Source of the DNA: a virus
IMG/VR virus record: IMGVR_UViG_3300029124_000021
Length of the DNA stretch: 34,434 nt
Direction: 5' to 3' (one strand)
The translations under genes and the position numbers were made by a program. The notes beneath the pieces were generated by a model. It saw nothing but the letters and a program-made list of their open reading frames with translations, was not told where the DNA came from and did no database searches. This document shows, one piece after another, positions 2,589 through 30,344 of this stretch (its first letter is position 1; each line of letters starts with the position of its first letter).

Positions 2589-2722
2589 TGACTGCAAGAG
2601 CGGGGAATATACAAGCACTCACAGAGTTTTTAAGTTTAGTGGAATATCACGCAGTGTTTTTATATATGGTAGAAGAGGCAAGCAATGATAAGTTTGCACT
2701 AGAGTACACGGAGAGGTTTTAA
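2588..2722 (+). CDS. Small 44-aa ORF translationally coupled on both sides (TAATG overlaps)
   Basis: Its ATG overlaps the stop at 2586-2588 and its stop overlaps the ATG at 2722. Below the ORF-track size cut-off. Confidence 0.3.
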   Translation: MTARAGNIQALTEFLSLVEYHAVFLYMVEEASNDKFALEYTERF

Positions 2723-3318
2723 TGAACATTTTAAATCTTTATGCTGGTATTGGTGGAAATCGTAAATTATGGGGAAACGAACATAATATTATAGCTGTAG
2801 AATATGATGAAAAAATTGCTAATGTTTATAAGGAATTTTTCCCAAAAGATACAGTAATAGTTGATGACGCACACGAATATTTATTAAAACATTATAAGGA
2901 ATTTGATTTTATATGGAGTTCTCCACCTTGTGTAACTCACAGTAAGCTTATATTAGGGAATATTAACAAGCCAAATTGTTTTCATTATCCAGATATGAAA
3001 TTATATCAAGAAATTATTCTATTAAAAACTTTTTGTAAAACCAAATGGGTTATTGAAAATGTAAAACCGTACTATAAGCCCTTAATAGAACCATCTTTTA
3101 ATATTGGGAGACATAACTTTTGGAGTTCAGATTTTATTCTAACTATTCAGCGTACTTTGAACCATTCTCAAATACGTAACAACAGAAATTTACTAGCAAA
3201 AAGTTTAGGATTTGATATTAACCATTTAAAAAATAAAAACATTGATGTAAGACAGGTTTTAAGAAATTGTGTAGAACCAGAAATAGGTAAATATATTTTT
3301 AATCAAATCACTTCTTAA
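2722..3318 (+). CDS. Minimal DNA (cytosine-5)-methyltransferase-like protein (198 aa) retaining motifs I, II, IV and VI only
   Basis: LYAGIGG (motif I FxGxGG), AVEYDEKIANVY (motif II), SSPPCV (PC motif IV), VIENV (ENV motif VI). No target-recognition domain or motifs IX/X before the stop. Confidence 0.6.
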   Translation: MNILNLYAGIGGNRKLWGNEHNIIAVEYDEKIANVYKEFFPKDTVIVDDAHEYLLKHYKEFDFIWSSPPCVTHSKLILGNINKPNCFHYPDMKLYQEIILLKTFCKTKWVIENVKPYYKPLIEPSFNIGRHNFWSSDFILTIQRTLNHSQIRNNRNLLAKSLGFDINHLKNKNIDVRQVLRNCVEPEIGKYIFNQITS

Positions 3319-4611: not shown

Positions 4612-5030
4612 AAAAATTAACACCTAAACAAGAAAAATTTTGTCAAGAATTTATTAAATGTGGAAATGCAAGTAAAAGTTATAGAATTGCATATAATACT
4701 TCTAATATGAAATCAGAAACAATTAATAGAACCTCTTTTGATTTAATGCAAGACCCCAACATAACCGCAAGGATAAAAAGTTTGAATGAAGAAATAAAAA
4801 ATAAATCTATTGCTGATGCAGAAGAAATTCAAATGCTTATGACAAAACTTTTACGTGGGGAAGAAGTAGAAGAAGTTCCGATGATGTCTGATGATGGAGT
4901 TGTTATGGCAAGAAAAAAAGTTACGCCAAAAGACAGAATTAAAGCCGGGGAAACTCTTGCAAAAATGCGGGGATATTTTGATATTAAGGTAAAAATTGAT
5001 AATATTCCAATAATAAGGGATAATATTTAA
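4608..5030 (+). CDS. terS: Terminase small subunit (Terminase_2 / P27 family)
   Basis: LTPKQEKFCQEFIKCGNASKSY is the characteristic N-terminal motif; sits immediately upstream of terL. Confidence 0.85.
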   Translation: MKKLTPKQEKFCQEFIKCGNASKSYRIAYNTSNMKSETINRTSFDLMQDPNITARIKSLNEEIKNKSIADAEEIQMLMTKLLRGEEVEEVPMMSDDGVVMARKKVTPKDRIKAGETLAKMRGYFDIKVKIDNIPIIRDNI

Positions 5031-6277
5031 TGATTGATTTACGAGATGTTATTATTCCAAAATTTTATGATGTTCATAAGGATATTAAGGCGAGAAAACA
5101 TACACATTACTGGTTTAAAGGGGGGCGTGGTTCTACTAAATCTTCTTTTATTAGTCTTGAAATAGTTTTGAATGTAATGAGAGATAGTAAATGTAATGTA
5201 ATATGTTTTCGTAAAATTGGAAAAGATATTGAAGAAAGCGTTTATAATCAAATATTGTGGGCAATTGATGTATTAGGTGTTCAAGATTATTTTAAAGCAA
5301 CCAAATCACCTTATCGAATAGTTTATGAGCCAACGGGACAAATTATATCGTTCAGGGGACTTGATGATGCAAAAAAAACAAAATCTATAAAACTTCAAAA
5401 GGGATATTATAAAATATCTTGGTTTGAAGAACTTGACGAATTTTCAGGGATTGAAGAAGTCAGAAAGGCTGAACAATCTGTAATGCGTGGGGGAAACGGG
5501 TTTATAGCTTTTAAATCTTATAACCCGCCACAAAATATTAATAATTGGGTAAATAAAGAAGTTTTACACGAAAGAAAAGACCGTATAATTACGCATAATA
5601 CTTATTTAGATGTTCCAAAAGACTGGTTAGGGGAGCAGTTTTTTATAGAAGCTGAATTTCTAAAACAATTTAATGAGTTGGCTTTTCGCCATGAGTATAT
5701 GGGAGAAGTAACCGGAAACGGTGGTATAATTTTTCAAAACGTTAAAAATTTACAAATTACAGATGAAATGATAAGACAATTTGACCAGTTACGAGAGGGG
5801 ATAGACTGGGGGTTTGCTGCAGACCCCTTTGCATGGAATAAAATGCACTATGATAAAACAAGAAGATGTTTATACATTTATGATGAAATTCACAAAACAG
5901 GACTTACAAATCCTCAAGCTATGGATTTAATAAAAACAAAAACTCAATGTAAAATTATTGCAGATAGTGCAGAACCAAAATCAATTGCGGAATTTCAGAT
6001 AAATAATTTTAATATTGTAGGAGCTATTAAAGGTCCTGACAGTGTTCGTTATGGGATAAAATGGTTACAACAACTTGCATATATTTATATTGATAAAGAA
6101 AGATGCCCTCATACATTCGATGAATTTTCTTTGTATGAGTTGGAAAAAGATAAAAACGGGGATTTCAAAGATAAATATCCTGATAAAAATAATCACCATA
6201 TTGATACAATACGTTACGCCCTTTCAGATGATATTGATAGAAACAATATTACGCCAATTAAAGGTTTACGTTTATAA
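5030..6277 (+). CDS. terL: Terminase large subunit, PBSX (XtmB) family
   Basis: Walker A WFKGGRGSTKSS near the N-terminus; 415 aa; position between terS and portal. Confidence 0.9.
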   Translation: MIDLRDVIIPKFYDVHKDIKARKHTHYWFKGGRGSTKSSFISLEIVLNVMRDSKCNVICFRKIGKDIEESVYNQILWAIDVLGVQDYFKATKSPYRIVYEPTGQIISFRGLDDAKKTKSIKLQKGYYKISWFEELDEFSGIEEVRKAEQSVMRGGNGFIAFKSYNPPQNINNWVNKEVLHERKDRIITHNTYLDVPKDWLGEQFFIEAEFLKQFNELAFRHEYMGEVTGNGGIIFQNVKNLQITDEMIRQFDQLREGIDWGFAADPFAWNKMHYDKTRRCLYIYDEIHKTGLTNPQAMDLIKTKTQCKIIADSAEPKSIAEFQINNFNIVGAIKGPDSVRYGIKWLQQLAYIYIDKERCPHTFDEFSLYELEKDKNGDFKDKYPDKNNHHIDTIRYALSDDIDRNNITPIKGLRL

Positions 6278-6324
6278 GCCCGTTTTATAAGGTTTTATCA
6301 TCATATTAAGGAGATTTTATAAAT

Positions 6325-7689
6325 ATGATGTATCAGATTGAGGCTGACAATAACGAAATAAATAAAACTAATGTAGCGGAGTGGTTAAGAATTTTTCAGA
6401 CTTGTATTTTACCCGAAAGACAAAAACTAGGGGCATATTATATGGGTAAAAATAAGATTGAGAAACAAGGAGTTGTTCAAGGTCGCCCGAATTATTTAAT
6501 TAATGTTAATATGGCTAAGTATATCACAGATGTTGCAACCGGTTATTTTATTGGCAAGCCTGCAATTTATGAAGCAGTAGGGGAGAGCACAAAATCAGCA
6601 CTTGACAAGCTCATGGATATTAACAAAAATTGTCGTGGTGAAGAAATAGACTTTGAAGTTGCAAGTGATATGTCTATTTATGGTGTTGGTTATCAATTAT
6701 TGATGGTAAAAGAAGGGCAAGACCCGATTGAGCAACGTATTGTATTTAAGCGTTTAAGCCCGTTATTTACTTTTTATGTTACTGATAACACTATTTTGCG
6801 TAATCCTTTATGTGCTATTTATTATTACACATATTTGGAAAACAAACAGACTAAAAATCGTGCGTATGTGTATGACAATGAAAATTTATATATCTTTGAC
6901 GGCTTTGGATTAGCGTTAGAGTTATCAGAAGTAACTCCGCACAATATGGGACAAATTCCGCTATTGCAGACAATTAACAATGACAAAGCAATGGGGGATT
7001 ACCTTTCTGTTGTTGATTTGTTGGATAGTTTAAGTTTAAGTTTATCAAATAATACAGACGACTTACAATCTATCGCAAATGCAATTCTTGCGGCAAGCGG
7101 TGGCACACTTAATAAGGAACAAATTCAATTAATTAACCAATATCGTACTGCTAATTTGCCGGTTGGTGCCGATATGAAATGGGTTGTTAAAGACCTTAAT
7201 CCTGATGCAATTAAAGACCATGTTGACCGCCTTATGGATTTTATTTTTCAAATTTCGCTCGTACCCGACTTAACAGATGATGCCTTTGCGGGTAATCTTT
7301 CAGGTGTTGCGATGGAGTTCAAAATGTGGGGTATTGACCAGTTATGGACAGCAAAAGAACGAAAATATAAAACAACATTGTACAAACGTATTAAAATGCT
7401 TTTGCACCTTTTGCAATATCAGATTAAGAACGATTTTGAGTTTTCAAAAGATATTTCAATCACTTTTTACAAAAATTTACCGCAAAATATGCAGCAAGAT
7501 TATGATATTGCACAAAATTTAGCCGGTATTATCTCGCTTAAAACTTTATTGAAAAATATTTCTATTGTCAAAGATGTTGACAAAGAGATTGAGCAAATCC
7601 ACGAGGATGAACAACGAAAAGCGGACACATACGGCTTTAATAACCCGATTAACAATAAAGATGTAAATGACGATGGCAAAGATGAGTAA
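6325..7689 (+). CDS. Portal protein (SPP1 gp6-like size and position)
   Basis: 454 aa, directly after terL and before the MuF-like gene. Confidence 0.75.
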   Translation: MMYQIEADNNEINKTNVAEWLRIFQTCILPERQKLGAYYMGKNKIEKQGVVQGRPNYLINVNMAKYITDVATGYFIGKPAIYEAVGESTKSALDKLMDINKNCRGEEIDFEVASDMSIYGVGYQLLMVKEGQDPIEQRIVFKRLSPLFTFYVTDNTILRNPLCAIYYYTYLENKQTKNRAYVYDNENLYIFDGFGLALELSEVTPHNMGQIPLLQTINNDKAMGDYLSVVDLLDSLSLSLSNNTDDLQSIANAILAASGGTLNKEQIQLINQYRTANLPVGADMKWVVKDLNPDAIKDHVDRLMDFIFQISLVPDLTDDAFAGNLSGVAMEFKMWGIDQLWTAKERKYKTTLYKRIKMLLHLLQYQIKNDFEFSKDISITFYKNLPQNMQQDYDIAQNLAGIISLKTLLKNISIVKDVDKEIEQIHEDEQRKADTYGFNNPINNKDVNDDGKDE

Positions 7690-13941: not shown

Positions 13942-15387
13942 ATGGCAACATATAAAGACATATTACTACTTGTAGATAAAGTATCACAGCCTTTGAAAAA
14001 AATACAAAAAAGTATGCAAGAGGCACAAAAGCCTATGTCTAAAATTCGAGAACGTATTCAAAAAGTAGGGAATAGTTTTAAAAATCTTGCTAATAAAGCA
14101 AAATTAGCAGGTAGTAGTATGCAAAAATGGGGTAACAAAATTACCGGTGTTGTGTCAAAGTTAGGGTTAAGCATAACTGGCTTTACTGGTGCAGTCGGGA
14201 TGGCTTTTAATCGTGTTCAGGGGTGGTTTTCTCAAACCGCAGAATATGGTGACCGAATAGACAAAATGTCTCAAAAAATAGGAATGTCAGCAAAAAACTT
14301 TCAAGAATGGGATTTTATTATGTCTCAAAATGGTGGGCATGTTGAAAGTTTACAAATGGGATTTAAAACTCTTGCAAATCAACTTAATTCTGTTAAAAAG
14401 GGTTCAAAAGACAGTGTAAAAGCTTTTAAGGCTTTGGGAATTCGTATTACAGATAATAGAGGGCGTTTGCGTGACCAAAACGATGTTTTTAATGATGCAG
14501 TAAAAGCGTTGCAACGCATGCAAAATCCTACACAAAAAGCAATTTATGGAAATAAACTATTTGGGCGTAGTTTTATTGAAATGAAACCATTGTTAAATCA
14601 ATCAGCAGAGGCTATTGAAAATTTACGTAAACAAGCACAAGATACAATTATTTCTCAAGAAGATATTGATAATGCTGTGAAATATACTGATACTATGGAC
14701 AGATTTAATCGAATTTTTCAAGCTAAAATGGCACCGATTATTACAAGATTAATGCCAAAAGTTTTAGAAATTATGGATAAAATTCTCCAACGTTCCGATA
14801 TTCTTGAAAAATTAATCGGTTGGATTGTTGTTTTGACCGATAAAATTGTGGCAATGGTTGATTGGTTTATGAACTTAAACAGCTTTCAAAAAAAATTAGT
14901 AATTGGCTTTGGTTTATTTTTAGCTGCTATTGGTCCAGTGATTAGTGGTTTAGGGTCAATTGTAATGATATTAGGTTCTTTTGGGGTGACTGCTACTGTT
15001 GCAGCTGAGGCAATTGGTGGCTTTGTTGCAGCAACTGCACCTTGGGGCGTTGCTATTGCGGGTATGATTGGCTTAGTATATTCACTCGTTAAAGCTATTC
15101 AAACTCTTGTCGGTTGGTTCCAACATCTTAAAAATATGAAAATTAGTAGTATCAATACTGGGTTTGATACAGAGCAATTAGACAAATTAAGTAAATTACA
15201 AGCAAGTATGGGAGATAAAGCTTTTACCGCTAAATATAGTAAAGATGTAAATAAAAAAGTTACAAATTATAGAAAAACACAAAATACAACCACAAATACT
15301 TACAATACTTTTAGCGGAAATATTACTTTATCAAGAGATAATCAATTAAACGGACTTTTACTTGGAGCTTTAAATACTGCTAATTAG
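13942..15387 (+). CDS. Tail tape measure protein
   Basis: 481 aa, helical N-terminal half and a Gly/Ala-rich hydrophobic segment (LVIGFGLFLAAIGPVISGLGSIVMILG...); position after the chaperone gene. Confidence 0.75.
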   Translation: MATYKDILLLVDKVSQPLKKIQKSMQEAQKPMSKIRERIQKVGNSFKNLANKAKLAGSSMQKWGNKITGVVSKLGLSITGFTGAVGMAFNRVQGWFSQTAEYGDRIDKMSQKIGMSAKNFQEWDFIMSQNGGHVESLQMGFKTLANQLNSVKKGSKDSVKAFKALGIRITDNRGRLRDQNDVFNDAVKALQRMQNPTQKAIYGNKLFGRSFIEMKPLLNQSAEAIENLRKQAQDTIISQEDIDNAVKYTDTMDRFNRIFQAKMAPIITRLMPKVLEIMDKILQRSDILEKLIGWIVVLTDKIVAMVDWFMNLNSFQKKLVIGFGLFLAAIGPVISGLGSIVMILGSFGVTATVAAEAIGGFVAATAPWGVAIAGMIGLVYSLVKAIQTLVGWFQHLKNMKISSINTGFDTEQLDKLSKLQASMGDKAFTAKYSKDVNKKVTNYRKTQNTTTNTYNTFSGNITLSRDNQLNGLLLGALNTAN

Positions 15388-16303
15388 TATTAGCAATATG
15401 TTCTTCTTTATATTCTAGTATTTTTCCCCATGCTCTATTCGGAGTAATTGGTGGCTCAAAATTTAACATTTTTATAAGATTGTTTGCATTAAACAAAAAG
15501 AGCTTTTTGTATTCCTCGAGTGATAAATCTTCTTTGAAAGCCCAACCATATATAGCAGGAGCAATAAAACCATGCGCCCATTCAGGGAATTCTTCTATTG
15601 TTTCTTTATCTAATTCTTCAGGGAAATCATATAAAGTACAATAATCTCCTATTAAATCTATATACAGTATAGTCATATAAGTGTTTGTTGCTTGGGTTGT
15701 ATTACCACAAAACGCTTGTAATTCAGCTTCCATAAAACGGAAACGTCTTAACTCTTTAAAACCTTGTTTTGTGTATATACTTTTTTTGCCAAAATGTAAA
15801 TCAATAATTGCTTGTTGAATTGCACTTTGTACAGTATATTGTTTTTCTTTATCTAATTTTATTTTTATTAATGTATTCGTTTCCTCCCATAGTTGTATGA
15901 ATTTCACACGAGAATTATATTCTTTCCATAAATTATCTAATATATCACGTTCTTTTTCAGTAAATAATCCCTCTTGTGAAGTTAAAATTTCCCGTTTACG
16001 AAATACTTTATTTTTACAACTGGTACATTTAAATGTTTTACCTTTGCGAATTGGCAAAGTATTGCCACAATATGGACAAGTATTGTTTTTGTTTAGTTTT
16101 AAGTTTTTTAAAAATATATCTAAATTTAATTCATCCCAAAATAACGTTTTTGATATTGCAAGCTTTTTACGTTTTGTTTTTCTTCTATAATATTCTTCCT
16201 TTGTTATTGTGTTAGGAAAATTTAAACAACTCTTGGGCAAATTTTTCTTTTGCTTAAATGGCTTTAACCAACTAACAAATTTATAAAAAATTTTCAAACC
16301 CAT
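15380..16303 (-). CDS. Hypothetical protein with an N-terminal C4 zinc ribbon (CPYCGNTLPIRKGKTFKCTSCKNK) and a ~180-aa C-terminal domain of unknown function
   Basis: Reverse-strand ORF embedded in the forward-strand tail module; its stop overlaps the tape measure stop by 8 nt. Confidence 0.55.
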   Translation of the reverse strand: MGLKIFYKFVSWLKPFKQKKNLPKSCLNFPNTITKEEYYRRKTKRKKLAISKTLFWDELNLDIFLKNLKLNKNNTCPYCGNTLPIRKGKTFKCTSCKNKVFRKREILTSQEGLFTEKERDILDNLWKEYNSRVKFIQLWEETNTLIKIKLDKEKQYTVQSAIQQAIIDLHFGKKSIYTKQGFKELRRFRFMEAELQAFCGNTTQATNTYMTILYIDLIGDYCTLYDFPEELDKETIEEFPEWAHGFIAPAIYGWAFKEDLSLEEYKKLFLFNANNLIKMLNFEPPITPNRAWGKILEYKEEHIANTN

Positions 16304-16305
16304 TA

Positions 16306-16644
16306 TTAAAAATCCATTCTTGCAATAATATGTTCTCTAAGCTTTTCAAATTCAGGTTGTTGAGCTTTTGTAAACATAACTGTATTTTCGTCTTTTGTCG
16401 CACTGAACAAACCGCCTTTGTCCTCTAAACTTCCCGGAAAGATAAATTGAATATACCCGTTTGTTACATTTCCTGCTTCTTTAAATTGTAATGCAGTTAA
16501 TTGTCTTAAAAAGATTGTTTTTGTTCCATCAAACCCATGAAGTGCAAACCCCATTACTCCTTTTCGGGTAATATCTATTTTGCTATAAGACAATTCCACT
16601 TGCCCATTAACACCCTTAACTACTTGGCTAATTTGTTGTTCCAT
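16306..16644 (-). CDS. Small protein (112 aa) with a bacterial PH-domain-like pattern
   Basis: GTKTIFLRQLTALQFKEAGNVTNGYIQFIFPG plus a C-terminal helix EFEKLREHIIARM resembles bPH folds. First gene of the reverse-strand cassette, 2 nt upstream of 15380..16303. Confidence 0.5.
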   Translation of the reverse strand: MEQQISQVVKGVNGQVELSYSKIDITRKGVMGFALHGFDGTKTIFLRQLTALQFKEAGNVTNGYIQFIFPGSLEDKGGLFSATKDENTVMFTKAQQPEFEKLREHIIARMDF

Positions 16645-16767
16645 TCTTAACTCCTTTAATTAACTATTCCATACATGAATACACAAAACAAAACATTTTG
16701 TAACTACCCATGTGGCTAATTCTTCAAAAAACTTAATGCCCCTTTTAGTAATTTCTATAATTAAACT

Positions 16768-17436
16768 ATGGGTAAACGATTAGAAATTCAGTTATATTGC
16801 TCGAAAACAGGCGAAAGCATTACATTGCCGCTTAATCCTGAAACAACAGATATTCCGAATGAAAAAGAAATTGAAACATTTGACATTTTAGGTTATGGAG
16901 AGGTGGCTGTAAAGGGCAAGAAGCGACTTAAACGCATCACCCTATCAAATATATTACCGTCTAATAATTCATGGCTTGCGTTGGCTGCATCACTTGTTAA
17001 AGGATTAAATTATAAACCGTATTCGTTACAAGAAACAATTGATATGATTAATCGGTGGGTAGACAATGACGAAATTATTCGTGTAATTATTTCAGAAAAA
17101 CTTAATAAATTATTCAGGATTGAAAAACACGTTGAGGCAGTGCGAGAAAGTGTTGTAGACGTCGGTTACACTATTGACCTTGTAGAATATGTAGATCCAA
17201 CAAACAAAAATACTGTTCTTAAAATGAATGTACCTGAAACAAGTGTTACGAAGTTAAAATCACGCCCAATAGAAAAATTTGTTCCTAACAAACAAGTTGC
17301 AAAACGGAATATGACTATTTATAAAATAGCTAAACTTACTTACGGCGGTCGTTCACAAGAATTGGCAAACCTTAACGCTATTTACAATCGTAATGCAGAT
17401 ATTGCAGGCAAAGTCGTGGAGATGTTGCCACTATGA
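16768..17436 (+). CDS. Tail/baseplate protein at the XkdP position
   Basis: Position only; I could not confirm a LysM motif. Confidence 0.4.
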   Translation: MGKRLEIQLYCSKTGESITLPLNPETTDIPNEKEIETFDILGYGEVAVKGKKRLKRITLSNILPSNNSWLALAASLVKGLNYKPYSLQETIDMINRWVDNDEIIRVIISEKLNKLFRIEKHVEAVRESVVDVGYTIDLVEYVDPTNKNTVLKMNVPETSVTKLKSRPIEKFVPNKQVAKRNMTIYKIAKLTYGGRSQELANLNAIYNRNADIAGKVVEMLPL

Positions 17437-25032: not shown

Positions 25033-25332
25033 TTGGAATTAAAGAATAGCTGCGCTTTTCAAAAGGAAGGAGCAGTAATGCAAGAAATAAAAAGAATACT
25101 AAAAATGATGAATAGTGAAATTTTTTATAAAATTATAAAGATTTCGGGATTAGATGATCGGGAAAAAACGTTATTAACGGAATTTATTTTAAGAGAACAA
25201 AAACGGGATTATGTTTGTGAATTACTTCATGTTTCACGCTCAACATTCAGAGAAATAAAAAATCAAGCAATGCTGAAAGTCAAAATTGCATTAACTAACC
25301 TTTTAAATGAAAAAATTAATCATCTCTCATAA
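25033..25332 (+). CDS. Sigma-70 region-4-like HTH regulator (ArpU/RinA-type late-regulator candidate); likely start at M 25078
   Basis: LDDREKTLLTEFILREQKRDYVCELLHVSRSTFREIKNQAMLKVK fits a region-4 HTH. Confidence 0.55.
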   Translation: MELKNSCAFQKEGAVMQEIKRILKMMNSEIFYKIIKISGLDDREKTLLTEFILREQKRDYVCELLHVSRSTFREIKNQAMLKVKIALTNLLNEKINHLS

Positions 25333-25416
25333 TAAGTGAACCTTCTTATTAGTACAATCCTTTATACTTAACGGTATGGAGGATTTTTTTTTATTGGTCG
25401 GAGAAATGGAGACAAA

Positions 25417-25995
25417 ATGCAAATAAAAACAGAAGACGGAACAAGAAACGTTTCATCTGCCGGTGTTGGTGGCGCAGGTTTAGGTTTAGGCATTGCAGGA
25501 ACAGCATTAGGTTTACTTAATGGAGGTTTGGGAGTATTGGGGAACTGTCGACAAATAAATGGTTCAAGTGAATGTCAAGACACAAGACAGATTTCAGCAC
25601 TACAAGCTGAACTAGGGAAAGAAAAGGCTGAAAGATATGCCGATAATATAGGAATTGAAACCTATAAAGCAAGTGTTGACCGAGCAAAAGAAATTACATC
25701 AGAAGTTAATAACAATTACAAAATTTTTGCAAGTCAAATTTCTGACTTAGAAAAAAAGGTAGCAGTTGGTGAACAAAGAACTAGCGATAATTTCAACTTT
25801 ATGAATTATAAAGTTGACACAGTTAAAAAAGAACTTGAACAAGATATTAATTGCAAAACTAATAACTTGCGTGCTTATGTAGATGCAACATTTGTTCCGG
25901 GTAAATTGGTTATGCCATTGGATAACATCTGTCCAGAAGCTATGCAACGTTATAATTCTTGGACTGCTCCAACAAATACAACAACAGGGGGTTAA
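25417..25995 (+). CDS. Membrane protein with an N-terminal glycine-zipper TM segment and a Cys-containing coiled-coil domain (i-spanin-like or holin-associated candidate)
   Basis: GVGGAGLGLGIAGTALGLLNGGLGVLG, then heptad-rich sequence containing 4 Cys residues. Confidence 0.5.
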   Translation: MQIKTEDGTRNVSSAGVGGAGLGLGIAGTALGLLNGGLGVLGNCRQINGSSECQDTRQISALQAELGKEKAERYADNIGIETYKASVDRAKEITSEVNNNYKIFASQISDLEKKVAVGEQRTSDNFNFMNYKVDTVKKELEQDINCKTNNLRAYVDATFVPGKLVMPLDNICPEAMQRYNSWTAPTNTTTGG

Positions 25996-25999
25996 TTAA

Positions 26000-26422
26000 A
26001 TGTTTAAAAGTGATGATAGGGTCGGAAATATCGAACTTTTAGAACAAAAATTAAAACATTATGAGGAGCAATCCTCAATAAATGAAACAGGTTATTGGCA
26101 GAAATTATCTGAAATGTGTTCTAAATTAAGTTCCGACCAGCTTAATTATATTAATAACAACGAAAACGTTATTGATAAGAAAAATAAGATGATGGAAGCC
26201 TTTAATCTGTTTTTGTTTGAAAATTTCAAAAAAGATTTTGCGGAAATTCCAAATTGTCAAAAACTTTGTGATGATTATATCGATACAATTCAAGATACTA
26301 TCGCTAATTATAACAAACAGATCGCAAATACAATCGAAGAAAATAAAGAACTTAAAACCAAAATTGCTGAATTGGAAAGGAAAATAAAAAATAATGAGAA
26401 ATCTAATACAAAGAGAACTTGA
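26000..26422 (+). CDS. Hypothetical coiled-coil protein
   Basis: Very AT-rich ORF; C-terminal KELKTKIAELERKIKNNEK. Confidence 0.4.
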   Translation: MFKSDDRVGNIELLEQKLKHYEEQSSINETGYWQKLSEMCSKLSSDQLNYINNNENVIDKKNKMMEAFNLFLFENFKKDFAEIPNCQKLCDDYIDTIQDTIANYNKQIANTIEENKELKTKIAELERKIKNNEKSNTKRT

Positions 26423-26750
26423 TAAAGCCGAAGAATACTTGTTAAAAACTCTTTTTAATGATATTCAAAATCCACAAATAAGCAATAAAATTAAGTTTTT
26501 TATGATATCTAAAAATATTGATTTTGACACCTTTATAAATCATAAAATAATGATTTTTGAGGAATTTTCACAAGATTTTATGAAAGATAACGGTTATTAT
26601 GATGGTGAAAAATTAACAAAAGTTTTGTTATTAAAATTTCCTATATTAGAGGGTTTAGAACTCCCCGATATTAAACCAATAGATTTACTTAAAATATTAG
26701 ATAATTTTATAAATTTAAAACAAATAGGAAATTTTATTCAAAATTTTTAG
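26394..26750 (+). CDS. Hypothetical protein
   Basis: AT-rich ORF overlapping its neighbours. Confidence 0.35.
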   Translation: MRNLIQRELDKAEEYLLKTLFNDIQNPQISNKIKFFMISKNIDFDTFINHKIMIFEEFSQDFMKDNGYYDGEKLTKVLLLKFPILEGLELPDIKPIDLLKILDNFINLKQIGNFIQNF

Positions 26751-26752
26751 AG

Positions 26753-27214
26753 GTGAACATGAAAGAAAAAGCTTTAAATAAATACAAAGAACTGAAAAAA
26801 GATAATCCGAATATTGACAATGAACTTATAATGACAATTATTGAGCAAATGCCACAAGAAGCTATTTGTGTGTTTGACTATATGCTTTATGGTTATCATA
26901 TTGTTTCAAAAGAAATGTATGAAAAAGCAGTTGAGTGTCTTGTAAATCAGGACGACTCAAAAGGCCCAAAATGGAGCTTAACAGAAATCAAAAACAAGGT
27001 AAACATTGATTTTGATAACAAGGATTATACTTTGATGGATTATGCCTATACTCTGAATATGAAATATAGCGATATTGGCGATTTGATTAGCACAGATATG
27101 CTTATGAAGATTGCAAAACGTTATCTTGAAGATAAAGACTATTATGGAGACCCGTCAGAACGTGCATATTTTGATGCAAAAGAGCGAATAAAATATTTTG
27201 AAGAAAAAGACTAA
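26753..27214 (+). CDS. Hypothetical protein
   Basis: AT-rich ORF followed by a strong terminator. Confidence 0.4.
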   Translation: MNMKEKALNKYKELKKDNPNIDNELIMTIIEQMPQEAICVFDYMLYGYHIVSKEMYEKAVECLVNQDDSKGPKWSLTEIKNKVNIDFDNKDYTLMDYAYTLNMKYSDIGDLISTDMLMKIAKRYLEDKDYYGDPSERAYFDAKERIKYFEEKD

Positions 27215-29741: not shown

Positions 29742-30344
29742 CTATACGTTTGTTCTGATAAGGCTTACAACTCGCCCAATGATTTTAAATGTATCGTTAG
29801 GGGTAATTACTCTATTTTGATATTCTTTGTTTTCTGATTTAATAATAATCTGATCTATATTTTTGACAAGCTTTTTAATGAATAATTCATTGTTGTATGA
29901 AAATAAATAAACTTTGTCATCTATTATTTGTTCACCTTGCCAATGTTTTAAAATAACTTTATCACCATCAAATATAAGAGGATACATGGATGAACCTTCG
30001 GCAGTAATGACAGAATATGTCGCATTTGATGAATAATCTGTAATACTGTCTTTGCTTATTGATATTTTCTCGGGGCTTTCTTGAAAAACTGTACAACCAG
30101 TTCCGCAAGAGGCAAAAACATCAGGATAATAATTGAGTTCAACAGAATTATTATCACCGCCACGTAAACTTATGCCATAATGTTCTTCGATTTTTTCTAT
30201 TTCTTCGTCTGAAAAATCGGCATTACGAGCAACTCTATTGCCAATAGCAGAAGCACCAATACTTAAAACTTTACCAATTTCAGCATATGACGGCTTATAA
30301 TTTATTAAGTTTTGTAAATCTGAAAAAAGCGTTAAACTACGCAT
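29742..30344 (-). CDS. CI-like repressor with LexA-type S24 peptidase domain
   Basis: N-terminal HTH SYAEIGKVLSIGASAIGN; S24 catalytic Ser motif GSSMYPLIFDGD and a downstream Lys in FIKKL. Confidence 0.85.
   Translation of the reverse strand: MRSLTLFSDLQNLINYKPSYAEIGKVLSIGASAIGNRVARNADFSDEEIEKIEEHYGISLRGGDNNSVELNYYPDVFASCGTGCTVFQESPEKISISKDSITDYSSNATYSVITAEGSSMYPLIFDGDKVILKHWQGEQIIDDKVYLFSYNNELFIKKLVKNIDQIIIKSENKEYQNRVITPNDTFKIIGRVVSLIRTNV

What the first reader, a model, noticed from the sequence alone, without database searches (positions are those of the whole stretch)
15380..16644. Reverse-strand two-gene cassette inserted inside the tail module between tape measure and baseplate genes
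All ~20 kb of late genes are on the plus strand except this pair: a 112-aa bPH-like protein (16306..16644) followed 2 nt later by a 307-aa protein with an IS1595-style N-terminal C4 zinc ribbon and an unknown C-terminal domain (15380..16303). It has its own intergenic promoter region (16645-16767) and converges on the tape measure stop. This location and orientation is typical of acquired accessory cargo (abortive infection, superinfection exclusion, anti-defence, or lysogen-expressed functions). The domain combination does not match any system I know, which makes it the best candidate in the window for an undescribed two-component system.
Basis: partly seen in the sequence, partly recalled or inferred. 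Interest (0 to 1): 0.7.

Follow-up and report, generated by a model that had tools for sequence, protein, structure and literature searches.

The report
Swappable accessory cassette in phage tail module
Two real, reverse-strand genes of unknown function sit in a slot between the tape measure and baseplate genes of a temperate gut phage where related phages carry at least seven other gene sets, so they are exchangeable accessory cargo and not tail parts, and they do not look like an obligate two-protein system.

Summary
Genes A (16306..16644, 112 aa) and B (15380..16303, 307 aa) lie on the minus strand, 2 nt apart, between the tape measure gene and the XkdP-like baseplate gene. Both are under purifying selection.

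A is a DUF4429 protein with a PH-like fold. B has an invariant C4 zinc ribbon followed by an all-helical TPR-like domain. B belongs to a rare family with no Pfam model and is not an IS1595 transposase.

Relatives with about 85-96% identical tail genes carry eight different contents in this slot, so the pair is cargo and not a virion part.

A is the constant first gene of a reverse cassette whose second position is exchanged exactly at gene boundaries. The alternatives are B, a DUF4236 membrane protein plus a Kv-type K+ channel, or a 194-aa membrane protein.

B moves on its own. It occurs in either orientation, without A, behind a cI-like repressor, or in other tail modules, and often has an N-terminal membrane anchor. 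A also occurs alone.

The hotspot and cargo reading is supported. An obligate A+B system is not. A lysogen-expressed, membrane-proximal exclusion or abortive-infection role is my best guess, and it is inferred only.

The parts
16306..16644 (-). Gene A: 112-aa DUF4429 protein with a PH-like fold and no SHOCT tail. It is the constant first gene of the reverse-strand cassette.
15380..16303 (-). Gene B: 307-aa protein with an amphipathic N-terminus, a C4 zinc ribbon and a TPR-like helical domain. This is the exchangeable second position of the cassette.
16016..16078 (-). Zinc ribbon of B: C76-P-Y-C79 ... C93-x-x-C96.
   Evidence: The four Cys and P77 are invariant in 14 family members and in 107 superfamily members. 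Only sub-threshold matches to many zinc-ribbon models.
15386..15958 (-). All-alpha TPR-like C-terminal domain of B, residues 116-306. D216, G219 and W292 are nearly invariant across the superfamily.
16244..16297 (-). N-terminal amphipathic segment of B (LKIFYKFVSWLKPFKQKK). It occupies the position of a hydrophobic transmembrane helix in several homologues.
   Evidence: Hydropathy analysis: P0004, P0006, P0007, P0008 and P0013 have an N-terminal 19-mer with KD above 1.6, while window B and P0001-P0003 do not. Segment 3-20 has a hydrophobic moment of 1.23. Membrane association is inferred.
16645..16767 (.). Divergent spacer between A and the XkdP-like gene. It contains A's Shine-Dalgarno (16651-16657) and is the presumed, unproven promoter region.
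   Evidence: Sequence. No consensus sigma-70 site inside it. Conserved in L029 and L028, and replaced in L011-L013 by a spacer with TTGACA-17-TACACT. GC 26.8%.
15380..15387 (.). Left recombination junction. The converging stop codons of the tape measure gene and B overlap in the palindrome CTAATTAG.
   Evidence: blastn homology to L029 and L002 ends at 15386.
16296..16308 (.). Internal junction between A's stop and B's start. Homology to phages that carry other second genes resumes here.
   Evidence: blastn shows homology resuming at 16296 (L029, L013) or 16305 (L011, L012). L029 and L013 have the same 2-nt spacing between A and their own second gene.
13942..15387 (+). Left flank: the tape measure protein, 481 aa and intact.
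   Evidence: PF10145 and tape measure PHROGs. The protein is 481-482 aa in all sister phages.
16768..17436 (+). Right flank: the XkdP-like baseplate-module protein, followed by a YqbQ-like gene.
   Evidence: phrog_380. The next gene matches PF24032 (YQBQ). 90-95% identical in sister phages.

Best explanation
The pair is a horizontally exchanged accessory ('moron'-type) cassette. It sits in a hypervariable slot between the tape measure gene and the baseplate genes of a temperate, PBSX/YqbQ-type contractile-tailed gut phage. It is not part of the virion.

Shown:
- A, a soluble PH-like DUF4429 protein, is the constant promoter-proximal gene of a reverse-strand cassette.
- The second position is exchanged at gene boundaries. 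The alternatives seen are B, a DUF4236 membrane protein plus a Kv-type K+ channel, or a 194-aa two-TM protein.
- B is an independently mobile gene. It encodes a non-enzymatic zinc-ribbon plus TPR-like binding module that carries an N-terminal membrane anchor in many relatives.

Inferred:
- The cassette is transcribed from the spacer next to the XkdP-like gene, against the late operon, and therefore independently of late transcription, for example in lysogens.
- A and B are made together by translational coupling.
- They act at the cytoplasmic face of the membrane.
- The most likely role is to protect the lysogen or the infected cell against other phages by superinfection exclusion or abortive infection. 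A would be an adaptor or sensor, and B a scaffold that binds an incoming-phage or host protein. This would parallel the sister cassette, where A could gate an ion channel in the way RexA is proposed to gate RexB.

My confidence differs by layer: about 0.9 for the cargo and hotspot reading, about 0.4 for an exclusion or defence role, and about 0.25 for A and B acting as one functional unit.
For: Cargo and hotspot:
- Eight different slot contents occur between homologous tape measure and XkdP-like genes.
- L029 has 96%/95% identical flanking proteins and a 100% identical A, but carries DUF4236-TM plus a Kv channel in place of B.
- Breakpoints lie at 15386 and 16296.
- B's GC content is 5.7 points below the window average.

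Independent mobility of B:
- B is inverted and paired with a 183-aa membrane protein in L002-L005 and L027.
- It lies directly behind a Peptidase_S24 cI-like repressor in L006/L007.
- It lies in other tail modules in L008, L010, L009 and L032.

Membrane theme:
- Nearly every alternative slot content includes at least one predicted membrane protein, including the Kv channel with its TSVGYGD filter.
- Five B homologues have an N-terminal TM helix, and P0008 fuses DUF4236, a TM segment and B.
- Bacterial chromosomes carry a DUF4429 plus Kv operon.

Lysogeny association:
- The window phage has an S24 repressor.
- DUF4429 genes in IMG/VR prophages lie next to integrases and ImmA-like proteins and near prophage ends.

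Defence association by domain fusion:
- 16 of 107 distant B-core relatives carry TerB_N and match Shango SngA.

Precedents:
- The HK97 gp15 exclusion moron lies next to the tape measure gene (PMC3594210).
- Sbash gp30/31 and lambda RexAB are prophage pairs of a soluble protein and an ion channel (PMC6426596).
Against: - No expression or phenotype data exist.
- No consensus promoter was found in the window's spacer, and no terminator.
- Neither protein matches any PADLOC defence model beyond noise: LmuB at E=9e-4 for B and nothing for A.
- Window B lacks a true TM helix.
- Most B homologues are co-oriented with late tail genes. That fits late lytic expression as well as it fits lysogenic expression.
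- A+B co-occurrence is confined to one lineage. Close A homologues also stand alone in chromosomes, so functional coupling is weakly supported.
- The TerB_N/SngA link is through the fused domain only. Isolated B-like cores do not match SngA.
Confidence: 0.45

Rival explanations
1. A and B are two unrelated morons that only share a transcript. B works alone, as it does in most of its family, and serves the phage's own late programme, for example as a membrane-tethered scaffold or regulator linked to late-region accessory genes or to lysis and late-transcription control. It would not serve defence. A has a separate, self-contained function.
For: - The other B homologues whose neighbourhoods were read lack A.
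- In L002, L008, L010, L009 and L032, B is co-oriented with the tail late operon.
- In four of these loci, B heads a block that includes a DUF1492-like late-regulator homologue and DUF7841. Homologues of these lie elsewhere in the window at 25033-27214, next to the lysis amidase.
- Close A homologues stand alone in chromosomes or sit next to many different genes.
Against: - The 2-nt spacing and the missing Shine-Dalgarno for B imply coupled translation with A.
- L029 and L013 have the same tight junction between A and their own second gene, which suggests selection for co-expression with A.
- In the window, B is antisense to late transcription.
- B also occurs directly behind a cI-like repressor.
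Confidence: 0.3
2. The cassette is a counter-defence (anti-immunity) or host-takeover module, expressed early in infection to neutralise a host system. B's TPR-like domain would sequester a host defence protein.
For: Variable, fast-exchanging slots in phages also hold anti-defence genes (general knowledge). B looks like a binding module with no catalytic site: the only conserved residues are the four Cys, P77, D216, G219 and W292. B-core relatives are fused to TerB_N, a domain found in defence proteins, and that fusion could reflect mimicry.
Against: B is placed behind a cI-like repressor on the same strand in L006. A-type genes lie next to integrases. Both point to prophage expression. The alternative cargo, which includes a K+ channel and membrane proteins, is not typical of anti-defence proteins. 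The chromosomal DUF4429 plus Kv operons suggest a cellular function.
Confidence: 0.1
3. A and B are tail-assembly or virion components specific to this phage, for example tape measure chaperones or baseplate accessory proteins.
For: B lies immediately after the tape measure or distal-tail genes in two different tail types.
Against: Sister phages with 85-96% identical tape measure and 90-95% identical XkdP-like proteins lack B (L029, L011-L016), or lack both A and B (Dulem virus 31, L030). In the window the genes are on the opposite strand. B also occurs in a lysogeny module. A homologues are common in bacterial chromosomes.
Confidence: 0.03
4. B is the transposase or homing enzyme of a small mobile element (IS1595-like or similar), and that enzyme explains its presence in either orientation.
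For: A weak match to Zn_ribbon_IS1595 (E=0.014). The B gene occurs in both orientations in the same slot.
Against: The match is below Pfam's cut-off and no better than matches to many other ribbon models. No DDE, HNH, GIY-YIG or other nuclease domain was found. The C-terminal domain is a TPR-like helical repeat. No terminal inverted or direct repeats flank the gene. Breakpoints coincide with gene ends, as in ordinary mosaic recombination.
Confidence: 0.03

Closest known systems
Phage morons in tail operons, e.g. HK97 gene 15 (a superinfection-exclusion moron next to the tape measure gene; Cumby et al. 2012, summarised in PMC3594210)
   Same: An insertion relative to close relatives, inside the tail module and adjacent to the tape measure gene. 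Part of it (B and the spacer) deviates in base composition. It is carried by a temperate phage, and the alternative cargo in the slot is nearly always membrane proteins.
   Different: There is no sequence or fold relationship to gp15/YebO. The cassette has two genes, is on the reverse strand, and has a constant leader gene with an exchangeable second gene. A promoter, a terminator and prophage expression are not shown, and window B has no TM helix.
Lambda RexAB and mycobacteriophage Sbash gp30/gp31 (a prophage pair of a soluble sensor and a membrane ion channel causing abortive infection; PMC6426596)
   Same: A two-gene prophage cassette with a soluble first protein. In sister phages and in bacterial chromosomes the same first gene (A) is followed by an ion channel. 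In Sbash the pair also lies next to a gene thought to be a tail gene.
   Different: A is DUF4429/PH-like, not DUF4747. In the window the second gene is a zinc-ribbon/TPR-like protein and not a channel. The channel in sister phages is a 6TM Kv-type K+ channel, not a 4TM RexB-like protein. No phenotype is known.
DUF4429 (PF14472), usually found as DUF4429+SHOCT proteins of about 150 aa in Bacillota and prophages
   Same: A is a true member by sequence and has the PH-like fold. DUF4429 is frequent in prophages: 92 matches in IMG/VR.
   Different: A is the short form without the SHOCT tail. The family has no described function, and a full-text search for 'DUF4429' found no paper.
Shango SngA-like TerB_N proteins
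   Same: Distant relatives of B's core (zinc ribbon plus helical domain) occur as the C-terminal half of about 600-aa proteins. Their N-terminal half is TerB_N and matches PADLOC SngA.
   Different: B has no TerB_N domain and does not match SngA. Isolated B-like cores do not match SngA either. No SngB/SngC helicase or ATPase genes are adjacent.

Membership tests
DUF4429 (PF14472), PH-like clan: protein A | Sequence match to the family model above Pfam's gathering score | tested here: met
   34 bits against a cut-off of 25, E=4.6e-8, covering residues 23-104. Precomputed PF14472 on all listed homologues.
DUF4429 (PF14472), PH-like clan: protein A | PH-like fold (seven-stranded beta sandwich capped by a C-terminal helix) | tested here: met
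DUF4429+SHOCT architecture | C-terminal SHOCT domain (PF09851) | tested here: not met
   A is 112 aa with DUF4429 only. SHOCT appears only in homologues with 58% identity or less.
IS1595-family transposase: protein B | Zn_ribbon_IS1595 (PF12760) above threshold | tested here: not met
   15.8 bits against a cut-off of 25.4. Comparable sub-threshold hits to nine other ribbon models.
IS1595-family transposase: protein B | DDE catalytic domain and terminal inverted repeats | tested here: not met
   No transposase domain in Pfam, NCBIfam or PHROGs. The C-terminus is all-alpha and TPR-like. No flanking repeats of note.
TPR / helical-repeat superfamily: protein B, C-terminal domain | Stacked helix-turn-helix repeats recognisable by fold or sequence | tested here: inconclusive
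Shango SngA | TerB_N domain and a match to the SngA model, with adjacent SngB/SngC genes | tested here: not met
   B has no TerB_N hit and no SngA hit at E up to 1. B-like cores cut from TerB_N fusion proteins do not match SngA. The neighbours are tail genes.
RexAB / Sbash gp30-31 type abortive-infection pair | RexA-like DUF4747 sensor plus a multi-TM channel partner | tested here: not met
   A matches DUF4429 only. B has no 19-mer with KD above 1.6. A channel partner is present only in sister cassettes.
Moron (as described in PMC3594210, after Juhala et al. 2000) | Extra DNA relative to closely related phages | tested here: met
   Slot contents differ among phages with homologous flanks, and breakpoints lie at gene ends.
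Moron (as described in PMC3594210, after Juhala et al. 2000) | Own promoter and terminator | tested here: inconclusive
   No consensus promoter in 16645-16767 and no terminator. There is a 10/12 site at 16913-16885 inside the XkdP-like gene. The sister spacer has TTGACA-17-TACACT. The host's promoter type is unknown.
Moron (as described in PMC3594210, after Juhala et al. 2000) | Base composition different from the surroundings | tested here: inconclusive
   B is 27.7% GC and the spacer 26.8%, against 33.4% for the window. A is 33.9%.
Moron (as described in PMC3594210, after Juhala et al. 2000) | Expression from the repressed prophage | not testable with these tools
   Needs transcript data from a lysogen.
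Virion or tail-assembly component of this phage lineage | Conserved at this position across the lineage | tested here: not met
   B is absent from L029, L011-L016, L001 and L030. A is absent from L001, L002 and L030. This holds despite conserved tail genes.

The most novel reading that the evidence does not exclude
The short DUF4429 PH-like protein may be the common subunit of an undescribed, modular family of phage and bacterial two-part systems that act at the membrane. In this reading it senses a signal and controls whichever partner is encoded immediately downstream: a Kv-type K+ channel, a DUF4236 membrane protein, a two-TM protein, or the zinc-ribbon/TPR protein B. That would make it a Rex-like exclusion or abortive-infection family with exchangeable effectors, with the window's A+B as one variant.
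Probability: 0.2. Interest if true: 0.7.

Novelty: new variant of a known kind. Interest (0 to 1): 0.45.

Why it matters
If the cassette is expressed in lysogens and excludes or aborts other phages, it would give a first function to two unannotated families. One is DUF4429, which is common in prophages. The other is a zinc-ribbon/TPR-like family with no Pfam model.

It would also define a leader-plus-exchangeable-partner architecture that includes a phage-borne voltage-gated-type K+ channel. The natural swap series, with the same A and the same flanks but different second genes, is a ready-made experimental design.

The hosts appear to be poorly studied gut bacteria. The closest cellular A homologues include a Gastranaerophilales MAG, so the finding also bears on phage-host biology in the gut.

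If it is just one more moron of unknown function, it still documents a well-defined recombination hotspot between the tape measure and baseplate genes.

Tried and rejected
- **Family searches for B.** Pfam, PHROGs, NCBIfam and PADLOC gave only sub-threshold zinc-ribbon hits and a noise-level LmuB hit.
- **tblastn of B against 50,697 GenBank phages.** No match.
- **PDB sequence search.** Nothing for A, and only weak consensus-TPR and RpoP-like ribbon matches for the B superfamily.
- **Names for distant B relatives.** Only 'hypothetical' or an automatic 'RPC12/RpoP' label from the ribbon.
- **Is B's core part of Shango SngA?** Rejected. The SngA hits come from the fused TerB_N domain, and isolated cores do not match.
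- **Transposon or invertible-element idea.** No flanking inverted or direct repeats.
- **Split tape measure idea.** Rejected. The tape measure protein is 481-482 aa in all sister phages regardless of cargo.
- **RNA elements.** No Rfam family and no tRNA in the window.
- **Literature.** No paper mentions DUF4429. One unrelated paper mentions DUF4236.
- **Scans with B.** One locus among 185,579 species genomes and two in IMG/VR, so no large census of B contexts was possible.
- **Scans with the XkdP-like protein.** Only 2 viral and 5 metagenome loci.
- **B plus a 7-gene block as one mobile island.** Weakened. Homologues of several block genes lie elsewhere in the window, at 25033-27214.
Full report
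**1. Observation**

A is 16306..16644 on the minus strand, 112 aa. B is 15380..16303 on the minus strand, 307 aa. B's ATG lies 2 nt after A's stop.

A has a good Shine-Dalgarno, AAAGGAG at 16651-16657, 6 nt before its ATG. B has none, which suggests translational coupling to A.

B's stop codon and the stop codon of the 481-aa tape measure gene (13942..15387, plus strand) overlap by 8 nt in the palindrome CTAATTAG. All other long, non-overlapping ORFs from about 370 to 27214 are on the plus strand.

Both genes are real. A has more than 178 homologues. B has 13 close homologues and 403 by profile search. dN/dS against relatives is 0.02-0.19 for A and 0.19-0.29 for B.

- the tape measure gene (PF10145 and tape measure PHROGs);
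- an XkdP-like gene (phrog_380);
- a YqbQ-like gene.

The phage is temperate. It has a Peptidase_S24 repressor at 29742..30344 on the minus strand, an ERF recombinase and an amidase.

**2. What the proteins are**

B has no family in Pfam, PHROGs, NCBIfam or PADLOC. Its model (pLDDT 79.8, pTM 0.73) has four parts:
- a disordered, amphipathic N-terminus (residues 1-31);
- two helices;
- a C4 zinc ribbon (C76, C79, C93, C96), invariant in the family and the superfamily;
- an all-alpha domain (residues 116-306).

The IS1595 ribbon match is below threshold and no better than matches to other ribbon models. There is no transposase domain and no flanking repeat.

Beyond the cysteines, only P77, D216, G219 and W292 are conserved across the superfamily. 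That pattern fits a binding module better than an enzyme.

Five of the 13 homologues carry an N-terminal transmembrane helix. Window B has an amphipathic segment in that position.

A profile search shows the ribbon-plus-helical core, about 220 aa, in roughly 400 metagenomic proteins. None has a functional name. Of 107 members examined, 16 carry an N-terminal TerB_N domain and match PADLOC's SngA, the Shango protein. That match is through TerB_N alone.

**3. The slot is a hotspot**

Phages with homologous tape measure and XkdP-like genes carry eight different contents between them:

| # | Slot content | Strand relative to tail genes | Loci |
|---|---|---|---|
| 1 | A then B | reverse | window, L028 |
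| 2 | A, DUF4236 multi-TM protein, 224-aa Kv-type K+ channel | reverse | L011, L013, L016, L029/L122 |
| 3 | A, 194-aa two-TM protein | reverse | L012, L014, L015 |
| 4 | 191-aa N-terminally anchored protein alone | reverse | Dulem virus 31 |
| 5 | Homologue of that 191-aa protein (183 aa), then B | forward | L002-L005, L027 |
| 6 | 58-aa ribbon-TM peptide, 351-aa protein | forward | L030, L123, L124 |
| 7 | B, then 7-8 small genes | forward | L008, L010 |
| 8 | 90-aa gene forward, 207-aa one-TM gene reverse | mixed | L126 |

The closest relative, L029, has 96% and 95% identical flanking proteins and an A protein identical in all 112 residues, yet a different second gene. DNA homology to L029 stops at 15386, the tape measure stop, and resumes at 16296, A's stop. 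Exactly gene B is swapped. Against L002 the B gene is inverted, at 76% nucleotide identity.

B is 27.7% GC against 33.4% for the window.

It is clearly not met.

**4. Are A and B one system?**

Co-occurrence argues against an obligate pair. A+B was seen only in the window and L028. Every other B-family locus I could inspect lacks A:
- after the tape measure gene in L002, L008 and L010;
- after the DUF2460 distal-tail gene of a different tail type in L009 and L032;
- directly behind a cI-like S24 repressor, on the same strand, in L006/L007.

Close A homologues lead other cassettes. Some form a DUF4429 plus Kv-channel operon in bacterial chromosomes, at 68% and 66% identity to the phage proteins. 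Others stand alone.

In IMG/VR there are 92 DUF4429 matches. Most are the DUF4429+SHOCT form. They lie next to integrases and ImmA-like proteins, or next to a recurrent 211-aa two-TM protein, and often within 4 kb of a prophage end.

Two observations point the other way. The A-to-second-gene junction keeps the same 2-nt spacing in the window, L029 and L013. P0008 fuses DUF4236, a TM segment and the B core in one protein, which links the alternative second genes to one another.

I therefore read A as a constant leader that is co-expressed with an exchangeable partner. That partner is usually a membrane protein. A physical partnership is unproven.

**5. Most likely function**

Shown:
- The cassette is accessory cargo in a recombination hotspot.
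- The phage is temperate.
- Nearly every variant of the slot contains a membrane protein.
- B relatives are often membrane-anchored.
- A relatives sit in lysogeny modules.

Inferred:
- The cassette is transcribed from the divergent spacer, independently of the late operon.
- Its products act at the inner face of the membrane.
- It protects the lysogen by exclusion or abortive infection.

The promoter is not established. The scan finds nothing in the spacer and no terminator, although sister phages have TTGACA-17-TACACT there.

There are two precedents. HK97 gp15 is an exclusion moron next to the tape measure gene (PMC3594210). Lambda RexAB and Sbash gp30/31 are prophage pairs of a soluble protein and an ion channel (PMC6426596). 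The A plus Kv cassette of sister phages resembles the second type in outline. A is not DUF4747, however, and window B is not a channel.

Neither A nor B matches a known defence model.

The main rival is that A and B are independent morons and that B serves the phage's own late programme. Most B homologues are co-oriented with late genes. Four of them head a block containing a DUF1492-like regulator and DUF7841. Homologues of these lie at 25033-27214 in the window, next to the lysis amidase.

**6. Novelty and score**

The kind of feature, a moron cassette in a tail-module hotspot, is known. The proteins and the leader-plus-exchangeable-partner layout are not described. No paper mentions DUF4429, and B's family has no model or name. 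I rate it a new variant of a known kind, with interest 0.45.

The most novel reading not excluded is that short DUF4429 is the common subunit of a modular, Rex-like family of membrane-acting systems. I give it a probability of about 0.2.

Noticed in passing
L029 2737-4377 (minus strand); also L011 5001-6488, L013, L016, L122; bacterial loci L022-L026 at about 6001-7043: Sister phages carry a 224-aa six-TM Kv-type K+ channel in the same slot (TSVGYGD selectivity filter, S4-like RxxRxxRxxK). It follows a DUF4236 multi-TM protein and the same DUF4429 leader gene. Bacterial chromosomes carry a DUF4429 plus Kv operon at 68% and 66% identity. A phage-borne voltage-gated-type channel with a PH-like partner may deserve its own study.
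   Followed up: partly
L008 7055-9865, L010 7294-10247, L009 6986-9864, L032 6970-9279; window 25033-27214: In four phages with two different tail types, B heads a partly conserved block of small genes. The block includes a small TM protein, a DUF1492-like regulator, a Cys-rich 110-aa protein, a 200-230-aa TM protein with a CCCETNRNIDAVRYENA motif, and DUF7841. Homologues of the regulator, DUF7841 and three other block genes lie in the window between the tail fibre genes and the amidase.
   Followed up: partly
L001 (GenBank PP511318.1, Dulem virus 31): The record is classified under Microviridae. It is a 35.8-kb genome with sheath, tube, tape measure and baseplate genes that are about 76-82% identical in DNA to the window. 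It is evidently a tailed phage that has been misfiled.
   Followed up: no
L030 3109-4356; L123 and L124: Another slot content: a 58-aa zinc-ribbon plus TM peptide and a 351-aa protein on the forward strand. The 351-aa protein has only a weak N-terminal match to a type II methyltransferase model and may be a nuclease-like or restriction-related gene.
   Followed up: no
L125 882-1625 (minus strand); L126 3163-4055: More variation around the same module. L125 has a 247-aa reverse-strand gene between the XkdP-like and YqbQ-like genes. L126 has a 90-aa forward gene and a 207-aa reverse one-TM gene in the slot.
   Followed up: no
window 2722-3318 (plus strand): A 198-aa ORF matches only the first ~112 positions of the 324-position C5 cytosine DNA methylase model (PF00145). 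It may be a truncated or split methylase gene.
   Followed up: no
window 15375-15392: The converging stop codons of the tape measure gene and B share the palindrome CTAATTAG. Homology to phages with other cargo ends exactly here, so this may be a preferred recombination junction.
   Followed up: partly
L017 5001-8120: A 77%-identical DUF4429 gene lies next to a 73-aa Cys-rich secreted peptide and close to an AAA_15 ATPase with a 236-aa partner. This may be a defence-type neighbourhood.
   Followed up: no
L114-L119 3001-5400: A 63%-identical stand-alone DUF4429 gene lies beside HipBA toxin-antitoxin genes and integrase fragments in gut metagenome contigs. This is again a mobile-element context.
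   Followed up: no
window 16885-16913 (minus strand): The best sigma-70-like site near the cassette is TTTACA-17-TAAAAT (10 of 12). It lies inside the XkdP-like coding region, about 240 nt upstream of A's start, and is conserved in L011 at 4756-4784. It may be the cassette's real promoter.
   Followed up: partly
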